This document shows, piece by piece, positions 128-25,864 of a stretch of 64,000 nt of DNA. Numbering within the stretch: the first letter of the stretch is position 1; the number at the start of each line of letters is the position of its first letter. Source of the stretch: a virus; IMG/VR virus record IMGVR_UViG_3300044844_000506, positions 1-64,000 of that record; one strand, given 5' to 3'. The notes beneath the pieces were generated by a model, which saw only the letters and a program-made list of their open reading frames with translations, searched no databases and was not told the DNA's origin. The position numbers were made by a program, and so were the translations under genes.

Positions 128-338
128 GTTGGCAAATAATAGTTGATTATTAGTTTGATTATTAGGGGAAATAGTTAGTCGATTGTGTGGGACTGATTAT
201 CTTATAGGGAATAAATTGTGAAAACCCCAGATTTAGCCCCCCCTATCAAAAATGAGATTAGAGTATTGGGTAATAAATTATAAAATCCCATTTTTATGCC
301 CCCCTATCAAAAAATAGAATAGTGGTAATAAATACAAA

Positions 339-428
339 CCACAACATATTGTGGTATGAGTAATAAAAAAAGTATTGATGCAGGGGTTTTTTGGCAATAC
401 TTTAGATTTGTACCACAATAGGTTGTGG
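339..428. promoter_or_regulatory. Two NrdR-box-like palindromes (339-354 and 413-428)
   Basis: CCACAACATATTGTGG and CCACAATAGGTTGTGG resemble the NrdR consensus acaCwAtATaTwGtgt. They are 74 bp apart. Confidence 0.45.
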
Positions 429-7973: not shown

Positions 7974-8761
7974 TAAACCTCTAGCATTTGTTCTGCGGCT
8001 TCCCAAACATAATCGTTAACCTTATTCGAAACATTCATGTTGGAAAGACTGCGGACGCGACGATTAGAACGATTCAGGACACCACCACGAATAAGGTTTT
8101 CCTGAATAACATTCATGTAAGTCCACACGGTATTACCAAGATCATCCTCACGACGATGCATAATCAGTTCGTTAGGATTAATCTTCTCGGTGGGATTATC
8201 ACCGAAACGAGCCTTGGCAACAAAAGAAGCCATATCAATAGCCTGTTGAGTGGAGATCTGCTTTTGTGAAAACAGATTAACACGCTCAACACCATAGTTC
8301 ACGAATTGTTGGAATCGACCCAACATCTCATTCAAGTTATCGAAATTGATGTTGACATGGGACTGGTAAAGAGAACCAAGATTATGACTCTTGATAGTCA
8401 AGCCATTGGAACAAACCAGAGTGAAAATACCCGCATCAAACTTAAGTGCAGAGCGACCATCGCTAGAATTAGTTGCAATGATCTCAAAGAACATAGGCTT
8501 GTTAGTATTCCGAGGATCAGGAACAGATACCCCAGTCTTATCACGGAAAATCATCATGTGCTTTCCGTGCTTCATGGAAGTTTCAGTACGCGACTTGGAA
8601 GTCTTAATACGATTAAGATCCCAACCCATAACACTCATCTTTTGAATGAGATCTTCGCTACTCACGAAAGAATAGCGATTGGAAAGTCCCTGCTTAGGAG
8701 CAGTAGCAAAAACAGCAGGGTACTTGTGACGGGTATCATCGTTGATAATAAGAGTGGTCAT
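7973..8761 (-). CDS. DUF932-family protein
   Basis: SxRYxFVxS, HxKHMxxFR, NSSDG...FxLVCSNGL, RRxxDxxxxxWxxxNVIQENLIRGG. Confidence 0.9.
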   Translation of the reverse strand: MTTLIINDDTRHKYPAVFATAPKQGLSNRYSFVSSEDLIQKMSVMGWDLNRIKTSKSRTETSMKHGKHMMIFRDKTGVSVPDPRNTNKPMFFEIIATNSSDGRSALKFDAGIFTLVCSNGLTIKSHNLGSLYQSHVNINFDNLNEMLGRFQQFVNYGVERVNLFSQKQISTQQAIDMASFVAKARFGDNPTEKINPNELIMHRREDDLGNTVWTYMNVIQENLIRGGVLNRSNRRVRSLSNMNVSNKVNDYVWEAAEQMLEV

Positions 8762-8785
8762 TGTGTATGTTTCCTAGTTTAGAAG

Positions 8786-9142
8786 TTAGTTAAAGTTAGC
8801 GCAGTCGAAAGTAAGTTTGTGATCTTGAACGGTTCCACGGTAAATGAAGAATGCAATCTTATCGTAGTTATAACGTCGGATTGCGTCCTTGGTCAAATGA
8901 ACAATTTGTTCACCTGCAAGTTCTTTGTCTTCATACATATAGTATGTTTCAAGAACTTTCTTCCTGACATCAGGATAAACATAGGAGAGATTGATACCCA
9001 TAAACCCTGCGTTCTTTTCTTCATGAAGAAGTTTAAGAACTAGGACCACGGGAGTGCTGTCTGTCGAACTATTATATGAAAATACGACAGGATTAGTTGG
9101 AATCTTGCGAAGGTATTGTGATTTTTCTAGTTTGTTCGTCAT
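8786..9142 (-). CDS. Possible gp2-like DNA end protector (short)
   Basis: FSY...DxxPxV...GFMGINLSY...R...AIRRY resembles T4 gp2 motifs. Confidence 0.45.
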   Translation of the reverse strand: MTNKLEKSQYLRKIPTNPVVFSYNSSTDSTPVVLVLKLLHEEKNAGFMGINLSYVYPDVRKKVLETYYMYEDKELAGEQIVHLTKDAIRRYNYDKIAFFIYRGTVQDHKLTFDCANFN

Positions 9143-9540
9143 AGGGTTAGCTTCTCAAACTCATCGTTTTCGATGGTGTAGTAAACAGTGGAGATACTTT
9201 GCGATTTTAAGTATGCCTTGCATGACTTGCAGGGCGCACTCATTTTAGTTTGATTGAGTTTATTCAATCTGACATTAACAATAACTGATTCACTCAAATC
9301 TGCCCAGAACTTAGCTTTTCGTACAGCCTCATATTCAGCGTGTACTTTACTTCTTTCCAGATATCCAAATTTAATGTGAGAACAGCCATCACGTTTGTTT
9401 GTACCCCAAGTTAGGATTTTACCTCCCCATATCAAAAAACTGAAATGGTGATAGTTACCCCACTCAGGATGCAAATCTATGTTGTTTCTAGTTCTGCTGA
9501 AACGTAATGCTTCAGTCAGAATTTGCGGTTTTACTTTCAT
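9139..9540 (-). CDS. Cytidine/dCMP deaminase-fold protein
   Basis: HAE and SAPCxxC zinc motifs. Confidence 0.85.
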   Translation of the reverse strand: MKVKPQILTEALRFSRTRNNIDLHPEWGNYHHFSFLIWGGKILTWGTNKRDGCSHIKFGYLERSKVHAEYEAVRKAKFWADLSESVIVNVRLNKLNQTKMSAPCKSCKAYLKSQSISTVYYTIENDEFEKLTL

Positions 9541-9729
9541 CTACAGGTTCAAGATATGCATCCATATATTCCATGTACTCCGAAACGATGTAATCAATTT
9601 CAATTTGAATGGTTGCCATATCAAAGTGATTCTGAATGTATGGAATAATATCTTCTGCCTGATTTTCATCCTCAAGACGCTTATAGTACGGCTGAGTCTT
9701 GATGTATTCTAAGACATTAAAGGAGATAT

Positions 9730-11428: not shown

Positions 11429-11504
11429 TGGTGAGACTGGAGGGGATCGAACCCTCGACCAAAAGATTAAAAGTCTTTTGCTCTACCAACTGAGCTACAG
11501 TCTC
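11429..11504 (-). tRNA. tRNA-Lys(UUU)
   Basis: Cloverleaf GAGACTG...; anticodon loop CT TTT AA; TTCGA; encoded CCA. Confidence 0.95.
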
Positions 11505-11513
11505 ATTTTGTAT

Positions 11514-11590
11514 TGGTATCCCCAACTGGACTTGAACCAGTAACCAACAGATTAGAAATCTGTTGCTCTATCCAATTGAGCTATGGGGAC
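11514..11590 (-). tRNA. tRNA-Arg(UCU)
   Basis: Cloverleaf GTCCCCA...; anticodon loop TT TCT AA; encoded CCA. Confidence 0.95.
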
Positions 11591-11595
11591 TTGTT

Positions 11596-11745
11596 TCAGA
11601 TCCCTACGTTTAAAGGGATGATTTCCCAACGCACATTCTTAAATTCGTGCTTTTCTGCGAAAGACTCAGCACTCAACTCAGAATAAAATGGTCCATAAGC
11701 ACGATGACCAGTCTGAGGATCTCCGATAATAAGAATGTATTGCAT
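11596..11745 (-). CDS. Small protein between tRNAs (MQYILIIGDP...YGPF)
   Basis: ORF trimmed to the ATG outside tRNA-Leu. Confidence 0.55.
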   Translation of the reverse strand: MQYILIIGDPQTGHRAYGPFYSELSAESFAEKHEFKNVRWEIIPLNVGI

Positions 11746-11754
11746 AGGATTGTT

Positions 11755-11840
11755 TGGTAGTCTTGGTGGGAATCGAACCCACACGAACAATGTTCTTCAG
11801 ATTTTAAGTCTGATGCGTCTGCCAATTCCGCCACAAGACC
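11755..11840 (-). tRNA. tRNA-Leu(UAA)
   Basis: Class II cloverleaf with long variable arm; anticodon loop CT TAA AA; CCA. Confidence 0.95.
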
Positions 11841-11855
11841 AATTTAAATTAAGGG

Positions 11856-11947
11856 GGTAAGTGCCCCGACTGCACTTACCTATAATGCGCCCTTTGTCGG
11901 TCCCATTTACGTTTAATGGTTTAAAGGCTCCCGCTTTTCCCAGCGAG
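11856..11947 (-). ncRNA. Unassigned structured RNA with a probable pseudoknot
   Basis: Hairpin CTCGCT/AGCGGG; stem GCCTTT/AAAGGGC enclosing CCATT/AATGG and unpaired CCGAC; 9-bp hairpin GGTAAGTGC/GCACTTACC with a GTCGG loop complementary to CCGAC. Confidence 0.6.
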
Positions 11948-11950
11948 GTC

Positions 11951-12036
11951 GCTATCCCCAGAAACTCAATAATGTTTCATATTGAGTTTCTGGACGCACT
12001 GAGCTTAGTAGCCTATTTATACTCGCTCAGTCGAGT
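11951..12036 (-). ncRNA. Pistol self-cleaving ribozyme
   Basis: P1 ACTCG/CGAGT; loop ACTGAG pairs with CTCAGT (pseudoknot); ATAAATAG linker; P2 GCTA/TAGC; CTAAG; conserved GCG; long P3; scissile dinucleotide G-A at 11956/11955. Confidence 0.88.
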
Positions 12037-12041
12037 GCAAA

Positions 12042-12548
12042 TCATTCTTCGTCGGAATCCTTGGAAGAACCAACACGTTCTGCACTAATTGACTTGTAAG
12101 CAGCGAGAGAATTCTCGTAAACATTCTTCAGACGGTGATATTCATCGTCTTCAATGTTGGTAGCAACAATGAGATCTTCATCAATAATAACATCTTCAAG
12201 AGCGAGAGATGCAATCCGATCATTGATCGAAGTGATCAGACCAGAATAGTTCTTGGAAGTGTAGTTGATAAAATCGTAACGAGCTTGAAGCATTGACAGC
12301 TTCGCACTGGTGCAACGAATCTTATAATTCAATCCAAGAGTCGAGTTACCGAGAAGAACAGAAGTCTTGTTCTTTTCAGTGATCAGCTTGTTCTTTGCTT
12401 CGAACAGAGGCTGAAGTTCTTCACGATTAACAGCATTGTTGAGCTTTTCCTTATCGGAGAGCTTCTTGATGCGTTCTTCCAGTTCAGCACGAATCTGTTC
12501 AGGGGAACGCTTGTTGTATTGACGCTTAGGTTCAGAAAAGGTTGTCAT
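12042..12548 (-). CDS. Coiled-coil hypothetical protein, first gene after element B
   Basis: 168-aa helical ORF. Confidence 0.75.
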   Translation of the reverse strand: MTTFSEPKRQYNKRSPEQIRAELEERIKKLSDKEKLNNAVNREELQPLFEAKNKLITEKNKTSVLLGNSTLGLNYKIRCTSAKLSMLQARYDFINYTSKNYSGLITSINDRIASLALEDVIIDEDLIVATNIEDDEYHRLKNVYENSLAAYKSISAERVGSSKDSDEE

Positions 12549-25225: not shown

Positions 25226-25356
25226 GTTTTCTCCTGCACTATGTCCTCTTCACCATAGCCATCGCCATAGCCAGAGCCAGAGCCAGAGCCATAGCCAGAG
25301 CCAGAGCCATAGCCATAGCCAGAGCCATAGCCAGAGCCAGAGCCATCACGGCTCAT
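25222..25356 (-). CDS. Gly-rich (GS/GY/GD)n micro-protein, copy 2, 44 aa
   Basis: Not in the ORF track. MSRDGSGSGYG...GEEDIVQEKT; GAGG RBS. Confidence 0.55.
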   Translation of the reverse strand: MSRDGSGSGYGSGYGYGSGSGYGSGSGSGYGDGYGEEDIVQEKT

Positions 25357-25367
25357 TTGTCCTCTAA

Positions 25368-25547
25368 TCAATTGCTCTTGCATTGCACTATGTCCTCTTT
25401 ACCATCGCCATAGCCATAGCCATCGCCATAGCCATAGCCATAGCCATCGCCATCGCCATAGCCAGAGCCATAGCTAGAGCCATAGCCATAGCCATAACCA
25501 TAGCCATAGCCAGAGCCAGAGCCAGAGCCAGAGCCTTTACGGCTCAT
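25368..25547 (-). CDS. Gly-rich (GS/GY/GD)n micro-protein, copy 1
   Basis: MSRKGSGS...GKEDIVQCKSN, built from hexamer repeats. Confidence 0.6.
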   Translation of the reverse strand: MSRKGSGSGSGSGYGYGYGYGYGSSYGSGYGDGDGYGYGYGDGYGYGDGKEDIVQCKSN

Positions 25548-25558
25548 TTGGCCTCGGA

Positions 25559-25864
25559 TTAGCTCCACGGTGCCTTCTCCCAAGCAGCAACAGCATCATC
25601 GCTGCACAGAGCGACTGCGGTCACGTTGCGAACTTGGATGTCCGCCTTCGGCCCAACTTTGCATCCGCTCGAAGGGCCAGTCGCCGCGAGGCCAAAACAG
25701 CCCTTGACATCCGCGCTCCAGTAGATGCACATCCGCGCATCCTTGAGCGTTATGGTGTCGCCATCGTAGTTGTTGGTGTATCCGAAAAACACACCACGAT
25801 GCGAGGTCGTAACGAGAACGGGAACCATCTTCTTAGCAGACTTCTTAACGATCTTCTTAGCCAT
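25559..25864 (-). CDS. DUF6948-like protein, GC-rich gene
   Basis: VLVTTxHRGVFFG...LxxARxxxYW...GLAxxGP; AAGGA RBS. Confidence 0.75.
   Translation of the reverse strand: MAKKIVKKSAKKMVPVLVTTSHRGVFFGYTNNYDGDTITLKDARMCIYWSADVKGCFGLAATGPSSGCKVGPKADIQVRNVTAVALCSDDAVAAWEKAPWS

What the first reader, a model, noticed from the sequence alone, without database searches (positions are those of the whole stretch)
11951..12036. Pistol ribozyme between an mRNA and a tRNA cluster
Seen: all pistol elements are present on the coding strand. These are P1, a 6-bp pseudoknot ACTGAG/CTCAGT, the AUAAAUAG linker, P2, the GCG and a long P3. It starts 5 nt after the stop of 12042..12548 and lies about 110 nt upstream of tRNA-Leu/Arg/Lys. 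The scissile dinucleotide is G-A rather than the usual G-U. Known: pistol ribozymes self-cleave, leaving a 2',3'-cyclic phosphate and a 5'-OH, and their biological roles are largely unknown. HDV-like theta ribozymes process phage tRNA 3' trailers. Inference: this pistol frees the ncRNA-tRNA precursor from the early mRNA, a 5'-side analogue of theta processing.
Basis: partly seen in the sequence, partly recalled or inferred. Interest (0 to 1): 0.85.

Follow-up and report, generated by a model that had tools for sequence, protein, structure and literature searches.

The report
Pistol ribozyme cassette before phage tRNAs
A genuine self-cutting pistol ribozyme sits just after a gene in a lake-water phage; comparison with relatives shows it travels with a small folded RNA next to it, not with the tRNA genes downstream, so it is probably not a tRNA-processing device.

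Summary
Rfam's Pistol model (RF02679) matches window 11951-12036 (-) over its full length at 56.1 bits (cut-off 34.5), with P1, the 6-bp pseudoknot, P2, a 15-bp P3 and a G-A scissile step at 11956/11955. G-A is a natural minority variant: 8 of 96 other phage pistols that I resolved have it.

The tRNA-processing reading is not supported. Three relatives keep the order ORF, tRNA-Leu, small ORF, tRNA-Arg, tRNA-Lys. They have no pistol, and their ORF-to-tRNA spacer is about 50 nt against 201 nt here. Another related phage (L109) has the pistol, also G-A, plus a homolog of the next ~105 nt. There it follows an unrelated ORF, with no tRNA over threshold in the record. So the conserved unit is pistol plus a ~105-nt folded RNA (11852-11955).

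Across 113 phage pistols, a same-strand tRNA within 300 nt downstream occurs in 4 (2.3 expected). The cut lies 114 nt from the tRNA, so RNase P is still needed.

Most likely the ribozyme severs the mRNA from the downstream RNA and gives that RNA a 5'-OH end. No RNA data cover the site.

The scan has noted pistol, ncRNA, tRNA arrangements before on other DNA. This is a new member of a known class in a moderately informative context.

The parts
12042..12548 (-). Upstream protein gene (168 aa, no Pfam or PHROG family). Its stop codon lies 5 nt before the ribozyme.
   Evidence: ORF list. Seven homologs at 56-100% identity and alignment A1 with many invariant columns. No family found.
11951..12036 (-). 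Pistol self-cleaving ribozyme, complete (P1, pseudoknot, P2, P3).
   Evidence: Rfam RF02679 at 56.1 bits against a cut-off of 34.5, full model. Fold z = -7.2.
11998..12031 (-). The span from the P1 loop (12031-12026) to its pseudoknot partner strand (12003-11998). It also includes the P1 3' strand, the linker 12020-12013 and the P2 5' strand 12012-12009.
   Evidence: Read from the sequence and the Rfam alignment. In 124 of 125 pattern-matched phage pistols the same two segments pair at 5 or more of 6 positions, using 42 different loop sequences.
11995..12005 (-). Active-site nucleotides by position in the consensus: purine 12005 and G12004 (A32 and G33 in env25 numbering), and G11997, C11996, G11995 (G40, C41, G42).
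   Evidence: All match the high-information consensus positions. Their roles are taken from PMC6154101 and PMC7027511. The mapping to env25 numbers is my inference.
11957..11994 (-). P3, an unusually long 15-bp stem with an 8-nt loop.
   Evidence: The median contiguous P3 in 96 other phage pistols is 8 bp, and 9 have 12 bp or more.
11955..11956 (-). Predicted scissile step, G11956 then A11955. The upstream product would end in a 2',3'-cyclic phosphate and the downstream product would start with a 5'-OH at A11955.
   Evidence: Junction columns of the Rfam alignment. Chemistry from Harris 2015, PMC4604425. Not tested experimentally.
11852..11955 (-). Conserved ~105-nt RNA that the cut would release at its 5' end. 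It has three hairpins: 11947-11930, 11919-11903 and 11880-11856, the last with an outer helix 11893-11890 / 11855-11852. A possible pseudoknot joins 11900-11896 to loop bases 11870-11866.
Evidence: 81% identical over 97 nt to L109:5299-5393, directly after that phage's pistol (alignments). Stem positions differ by paired changes. No Rfam family matches.
11755..11840 (-). tRNA-Leu (anticodon UAA), the first gene of the downstream cluster.
   Evidence: ARAGORN and Rfam.
11596..11745 (-). 49-aa ORF between tRNA-Leu and tRNA-Arg, conserved in relatives.
   Evidence: Sequence. The same ORF is present at the same place in L004 and L006.
11429..11590 (-). tRNA-Arg (UCU) 11514-11590 and tRNA-Lys (UUU) 11429-11504.

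Best explanation
This is a genuine and probably active pistol ribozyme. It forms the front half of a ~190-nt RNA cassette (12040-11852): the ribozyme plus a ~105-nt folded RNA.

The cassette lies in the 3' untranslated region of a phage gene, on a transcript that runs on into tRNA-Leu, a 49-aa ORF, tRNA-Arg and tRNA-Lys.

Once transcribed, the ribozyme cuts between G11956 and A11955. The mRNA keeps almost the whole ribozyme as a structured 3' end with a 2',3'-cyclic phosphate. The downstream RNA starts with a 5'-OH and carries only five ribozyme nucleotides. P2 is only 4 bp, so the two products should separate readily.

The 3' end of the ~115-nt RNA would then be made by RNase P when it cuts at the 5' end of tRNA-Leu. 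The tRNA cluster is therefore a neighbour that happens to supply an end. It is not the purpose of the ribozyme.

Shown here: membership of the pistol class by sequence and structure; conservation of the cassette in a second phage; absence of the cassette from syntenic relatives.

Inferred: catalytic activity, co-transcription, the identity of the released RNA, and what that RNA does.
For: - Class membership.
- The G-A junction is a natural variant: 8 of 96 other resolved phage pistols have it. It also occurs in L109, L137 and L032. Harris 2015 says the dinucleotide is only modestly conserved while its length is strict.
- The cassette is conserved: blastn gives 72% identity over 189 nt for 12040-11852 against L109:5220-5393, and 81% over 97 nt for the RNA alone. 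The likeness begins at the ribozyme's 5' end.
- Paired changes keep the stems. One double change in the 9-bp hairpin is counted by RNAalifold. Two in the second hairpin and a U-G to C-G change in the first are read.
- The ORFs before the two pistols are unrelated, and L109 has no tRNA nearby.
- Relatives L004, L005 and L006 keep the ORF and tRNA cluster with a ~50-nt spacer and no pistol.
- No promoter-like site was called between the ORF and the tRNAs on the coding strand, which fits one transcript.
- Phage pistols generally start a median 10 nt after a stop codon, as this one does.
Against: - No RNA data cover the site. The two metatranscriptome runs that share words with the stretch cover only tRNA-like parts, so neither transcription nor cleavage is shown.
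- The downstream RNA has only two known members. A covariance model built from them found no more in about 1.2 Mb of pistol-bearing phage DNA.
- Its fold is not unusually stable in the window copy (z = -1.07) and only moderately so in L109 (z = -2.3).
- L109 is itself a relative that shares more than ten genes. Common descent followed by rearrangement could explain the shared cassette as well as mobility could.
- No experimental test of A at the +1 position was found in the papers I read.
Confidence: 0.6

Rival explanations
1. The ribozyme exists to free the tRNA precursor from the mRNA. It would be a 5'-side counterpart of theta ribozymes, uncoupling tRNA supply from the fate of the message.
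For: - The pistol is 110 nt upstream of a three-tRNA cluster on the same strand, with no promoter called between them.
- A pistol of the same subtype in L137 sits inside a 10-tRNA cluster, 147 nt before tRNA-Met.
- Within 1 kb downstream, tRNAs are somewhat enriched after phage pistols (10 observed, 5.1 expected, P 0.012).
- Earlier notes of this scan list similar arrangements. These are leads only.
Against: - Syntenic relatives have the same tRNA cluster without any ribozyme.
- L109 has the pistol cassette without a tRNA.
- Within 300 nt there is no enrichment (4 of 113, 2.3 expected).
- The cut is 114 nt from the tRNA end, so RNase P is still required and would by itself separate the tRNA from the mRNA.
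- The other two tRNA genes of this genome have no ribozyme.
Confidence: 0.15
2. The ribozyme acts mainly on the upstream message. It gives the 168-aa gene's mRNA a defined, structured 3' end with a cyclic phosphate, or otherwise sets that mRNA's lifetime. What lies downstream does not matter.
For: - In 96 resolved phage pistols the ribozyme starts a median 10 nt after a same-strand stop codon (47 of 91 within 10 nt). What follows varies: the next gene's ribosome-binding site, an intrinsic terminator (L032), a folded RNA, or tRNAs.
- Cleavage near the 3' end of the fold leaves nearly the whole ribozyme on the upstream product.
Against: - It does not explain why the ~105 nt after the ribozyme are conserved together with it behind unrelated ORFs.
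- Relatives carry the homologous ORF without a ribozyme.
- No stability data exist.
Confidence: 0.2
3. It is an inactive or functionless passenger. The sequence keeps the pistol pattern, but the G-A junction or the long P3 prevents cutting, or cutting has no consequence.
For: - The +1 nucleotide departs from the consensus.
- The cassette is dispensable in relatives.
- No expression evidence.
Against: - All other high-information positions and all helices are intact.
- G-A recurs in independent, otherwise intact pistols.
- P1 and the pseudoknot are perfect.
- Identical copies occur in contigs from two other lake samples, although this says little about selection.
Confidence: 0.05

Closest known systems
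Pistol self-cleaving ribozyme class (Rfam RF02679; Weinberg 2015; Harris 2015, PMC4604425; env25 crystal structures)
   Same: Full-length match over the curated cut-off. It has P1, a 6-bp pseudoknot, P2, P3 and a two-nucleotide junction, and all conserved core positions are present. Its phage context is the one the class is known for.
   Different: A instead of U at the +1 position, which is a minority natural variant. P3 is 15 bp against a median of 8. It is joined to a conserved unassigned RNA.
Theta (minimal HDV-like) ribozymes next to phage tRNAs (Kienbeck 2024, PMC10879173)
   Same: A small self-cleaving ribozyme in a phage, on the same transcript as tRNA genes.
   Different: Theta ribozymes have their cleavage site adjacent to the tRNA and make its 3' end. 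Here the cut is 114 nt upstream of the tRNA 5' end, the linkage is not conserved in relatives, and RNase P is still needed. The fold is also unrelated.
Self-cleaving ribozymes (hammerhead, twister, pistol, hatchet) at gene boundaries of phage and prophage operons
   Same: An intergenic position directly after a stop codon in a run of same-strand phage genes.
   Different: Here the downstream neighbour is not a protein gene but a conserved small RNA followed by tRNAs.
Small stable RNAs co-transcribed with phage tRNA clusters (for example the two small RNAs in the T4 tRNA region; from my own knowledge, not checked here)
   Same: A small non-tRNA RNA lies next to phage tRNA genes, and its end could be set by tRNA-processing enzymes.
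   Different: No sequence relation was tested. In T4 no ribozyme is involved.

Membership tests
Pistol ribozyme (RF02679) | Covariance-model score at or above Rfam's gathering score, over the full model | tested here: met
   56.1 bits against 34.5, model positions 1-68 of 68.
Pistol ribozyme (RF02679) | Three stems, P1, P2 and P3 | tested here: met
   P1 5 bp, P2 4 bp, P3 15 bp.
Pistol ribozyme (RF02679) | [quoted passage not shown] | tested here: met
   Six Watson-Crick pairs, 12031-12026 with 12003-11998.
Pistol ribozyme (RF02679) | P3-P2 junction of exactly two nucleotides, holding the cleavage site | tested here: met
   G11956 and A11955. Harris 2015 states that the length is strict and the identity varies. 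GA occurs in 8 of 96 other phage pistols.
Pistol ribozyme (RF02679) | Highly conserved core nucleotides: the AAA-containing linker, the purine-G before the pseudoknot strand, and the GCG | tested here: met
   All match the consensus. Their roles are described. The env25 numbering is my mapping.
Pistol ribozyme (RF02679) | Mg-dependent self-cleavage that yields a 2',3'-cyclic phosphate and a 5'-OH | not testable with these tools
   This needs an in vitro transcription and cleavage assay. RNA runs gave no cover of the site.
tRNA end-making ribozyme (theta-like role) | Cleavage site adjacent to the tRNA end | tested here: not met
   The cut at 11956/11955 is 114 nt upstream of the tRNA-Leu 5' end at 11840.
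tRNA end-making ribozyme (theta-like role) | Ribozyme-tRNA linkage kept in relatives and enriched across the class | tested here: not met
   L004, L005 and L006 have the tRNA cluster without a pistol. L109 has the pistol without a tRNA. 4 of 113 phage pistols have a tRNA within 300 nt, against 2.3 expected.

The most novel reading that the evidence does not exclude
Pistol plus the ~105-nt pseudoknotted RNA is a two-part RNA cassette that moves between phage loci, and the ribozyme's natural job is to give that RNA a precise 5'-OH end. After the cut, the freed five-nucleotide tail (11955-11951) together with the next bases may leave P2 and pair with 11892-11887 to close the RNA's fold. That helix shows one paired change between the two known copies. 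More widely, pistols would serve as 5'-end makers for a varied set of small phage RNAs, some of which borrow RNase P sites of neighbouring tRNAs for their 3' ends.
Probability: 0.3. Interest if true: 0.65.

Novelty: new member of a known kind. Interest (0 to 1): 0.42.

Why it matters
Pistol ribozymes were found in 2015 and are well understood chemically, but their biological role is still open. This locus does not show the tRNA-processing role that was proposed for it. It does give a concrete and testable pairing: the same ribozyme subtype is joined to the same small folded RNA in two phages, behind unrelated genes. If the RNA is released as predicted, that would be a defined natural substrate for a pistol ribozyme. 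The survey made here also shows that phage pistols sit hard against the preceding stop codon, with varied sequence after them. This points to transcript severing as the shared activity.

Tried and rejected
- GenBank phages gave only tRNA matches and no near relative. The ORF gave nothing in viral contigs, either alone or as an alignment.
- RNA evidence: two metatranscriptome runs shared about 5% of the words. When laid, they cover only the tRNA-like parts and not the pistol or the ORF. This says nothing either way about expression. DNA contigs from two other lake samples are identical over the pistol, so they give no covariation.
- By eye I saw a TATAAT in the relatives' ORF-tRNA spacer and considered that they carry their own tRNA promoter. 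The scan called no promoter or terminator there, so I dropped the idea.
- The hairpin 11880-11856 was flagged as terminator-like. Its L109 homolog has no U-rich tail, so it is more likely part of the RNA fold.
- Motif scans for more copies of the downstream RNA returned L129-L133 (viral) and L134 (an Actinomycetota MAG). None has a pistol or any further likeness, so these are chance hits.
- Covariance model R1 found no further member.
- The weak Rfam match to rteR (27.6 bits against a cut-off of 72) and the mir-145 match are chance.
- I first took L109 to be unrelated. tblastn showed it shares more than ten genes with this genome, so 'mobility' is stated only as one of two options.
- I found no paper that tests A at the +1 position.

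Full report
**What the window is.** The window is the first 64 kb of a 111,612-bp virus record with direct terminal repeats, rated complete. Its GC content is 35%. Near-identical DNA occurs in many lake-water metagenomes. Genes around the finding all lie on the minus strand.

**The observation.** Rfam's Pistol model (RF02679) matches 11951-12036 (-) at 56.1 bits against a gathering score of 34.5. The E-value is 1.6e-7 for the whole window, and the match covers the full model. It is the only ribozyme match in the genome.

The alignment and the sequence give the following:
- a 5-bp P1
- a 6-bp pseudoknot between the P1 loop and 12003-11998
- the A-rich linker
- a 4-bp P2
- the GCG
- a 15-bp P3
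- a two-nucleotide junction, G11956-A11955

The positions that the structural literature assigns to catalysis are all present by position in the consensus. These are the purine before G33, G33 itself, G40, C41 and G42. The mapping to those numbers is my inference. The ribozyme starts 5 nt after the stop codon of a 168-aa ORF and ends 110 nt before tRNA-Leu.

**The G-A step.** Harris et al. describe the GU as only modestly conserved and the junction length as strictly conserved. Of the 125 pattern matches (124 in those loci plus the window's own), 124 show P1 and pseudoknot pairing, with 42 different loop sequences, so they are true pistols. Where my script could close P2 and P3 (96 besides the window), the junction was GU in 66, GA in 8, AU in 6 and GC in 5. 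G-A is therefore a regular minority variant. No experimental test of A at this position turned up.

**Relatives with the tRNA cluster.** The 168-aa ORF has homologs at 52-59% identity. Three metagenome contigs carry it (L004, L005, L006). Each continues with tRNA-Leu(UAA). The two contigs that extend further, L004 and L006, go on with the same small ORF, tRNA-Arg(UCU), tRNA-Ile and tRNA-Lys. None has a pistol at E up to 0.01. Their stop-to-tRNA spacer is about 50 nt and holds one hairpin, whose sequence differs between contigs but still pairs. The window's spacer is 201 nt. No promoter or terminator was called in those spacers. The relatives therefore probably also transcribe the ORF and tRNAs together, and they process the tRNAs without a ribozyme.

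**A relative with the pistol.** I compared the 110-nt spacer with all pistol loci. One gave a strong match: L109, at 81% over 97 nt. The whole stretch 12040-11852 matches at 72% over 189 nt. L109 has a pistol (42 bits, also with a G-A junction and the same P2) that starts 6 nt after the stop of a 155-aa ORF. That ORF is unrelated to the window's ORF.

The next ~105 nt are homologous. They hold three hairpins in which differences between the two copies are paired. Two positions change on both sides in the second hairpin, one in the 9-bp hairpin, and a U-G becomes C-G in the first. A single-stranded stretch and the loop it could pair with are identical in the two copies, so the proposed pseudoknot cannot be tested by covariation.

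L109's 12.9-kb locus has no tRNA. Its 63-kb record, rated 56% complete, has no tRNA over Rfam's cut-off and no homolog of the 168-aa ORF. Two sub-threshold tRNA-like matches lie 2.2 kb upstream and 1.3 kb downstream, the latter on the other strand. L109 is a relative, since it shares more than ten genes at 35-90% amino-acid identity. I therefore cannot say whether the cassette moved or the genomes were rearranged. Either way, the pistol stays with the small RNA and not with the tRNAs.

**Survey of pistol contexts.** Among the sampled phage pistols, a same-strand tRNA starts within 300 nt downstream in 4 of 113 assessable cases. Random placement within the same loci predicts 2.3 (P 0.19). Within 1 kb the count is 10 of 94 against 5.1 expected (P 0.012). 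A minority of pistols thus lie in tRNA-rich regions, but adjacency is not the rule.

In contrast, pistols start a median 10 nt after a same-strand stop codon (47 of 91 within 10 nt). The next ORF of 60 aa or more starts a median 139 nt further on.

What follows the ribozyme varies:
- a ribosome-binding site and start codon (several loci)
- an intrinsic terminator (L032)
- a ~147-nt unassigned stretch and tRNA-Met inside a 10-tRNA cluster (L137)
- the conserved RNA described here

L137 and L032 belong to the same pistol subtype as the window (same P2, G-A junction).

**Mechanism.** Pistol cleavage lies near the 3' end of the fold. The upstream product (mRNA plus 81 nt of ribozyme) would end in a 2',3'-cyclic phosphate. 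The downstream product would begin with a 5'-OH at A11955 and carry five ribozyme nucleotides (chemistry). Because P2 has four pairs, the products should part.

The downstream RNA would run to the RNase P site at the 5' end of tRNA-Leu, giving about 115 nt. These steps are inferred. Two facts argue against a tRNA-maturation role in the sense of theta ribozymes, whose cut is adjacent to the tRNA: RNase P must still act here, and the relatives manage without the ribozyme.

RNAalifold also proposes a helix between the freed 5' tail and 11892-11887, with one paired change. This is a weak lead for a cleavage-dependent refolding.

**Limits.**
- No RNA data cover the site.
- The downstream RNA has two members only, and model R1 found no more in about 1.2 Mb.
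- The folds of the downstream RNA are not strikingly stable.
My script resolved the 3' end in 97 of 125 matches.

**Earlier notes of this scan.** A word search returned many notes on pistols next to unassigned RNAs and tRNAs in other phages. I used these as leads. The L109 homolog and the L137 context are my own checks.

**Verdict.** This is a real pistol ribozyme and a new member of a known class. The proposed tRNA-processing role is not supported. The better-supported reading is a pistol-plus-small-RNA cassette in which the ribozyme severs the message and sets the RNA's 5' end.

Noticed in passing
window 11596-11745 (-): A 49-aa ORF sits between tRNA-Leu and tRNA-Arg. It is conserved at the same place in L004 and L006, so the 'tRNA cluster' is interleaved with a small protein gene.
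   Followed up: partly
window 25250-25562, and L109 about 8000-9700: A stretch of about 280 nt between tRNA-Asn and tRNA-Ile matches many overlapping or tandem places in L109 at 70-85% identity. This looks like a repeat family shared by the two phages.
   Followed up: no
L007-L125 (phage pistol loci): Phage pistols start a median 10 nt after a same-strand stop codon (47 of 91 within 10 nt). The next ORF of 60 aa or more is a median 139 nt away. The ribozyme sits much closer to the preceding gene than to the following one.
   Followed up: partly
L137 6786-7307 (-): A pistol (63.6 bits, G-A junction) lies inside a 10-tRNA cluster, followed by about 147 nt of unassigned sequence and then tRNA-Met. 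The downstream stretch does not match model R1.
   Followed up: partly
L137 8154-8242 (-): ARAGORN reports a tRNA of unassigned identity with a four-base anticodon (agaa) in the same cluster. It may be an expanded-anticodon tRNA or a miscall.
   Followed up: no
L032 about 270-395 (-): A pistol of the same subtype starts 8 nt after a stop codon and is followed within about 15 nt by a hairpin with a T-run. There the cut would remove only the terminator hairpin from the message.
   Followed up: no
L057, L086, L091; and L028, L075, L114: In two groups of pistol loci the 150 nt after the ribozyme are alike, while the 400 nt before it are alike in only one of three pairs. These may be further pistol-plus-RNA cassettes. 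The first group lies among tRNAs.
   Followed up: no
L004 740-779, L005 4520-4560, L006 840-879: The relatives' short ORF-to-tRNA-Leu spacer holds an 8-bp hairpin ending 6-7 nt before the tRNA. Its sequence differs between L004/L005 and L006 but still pairs. It may be a conserved leader hairpin.
   Followed up: no
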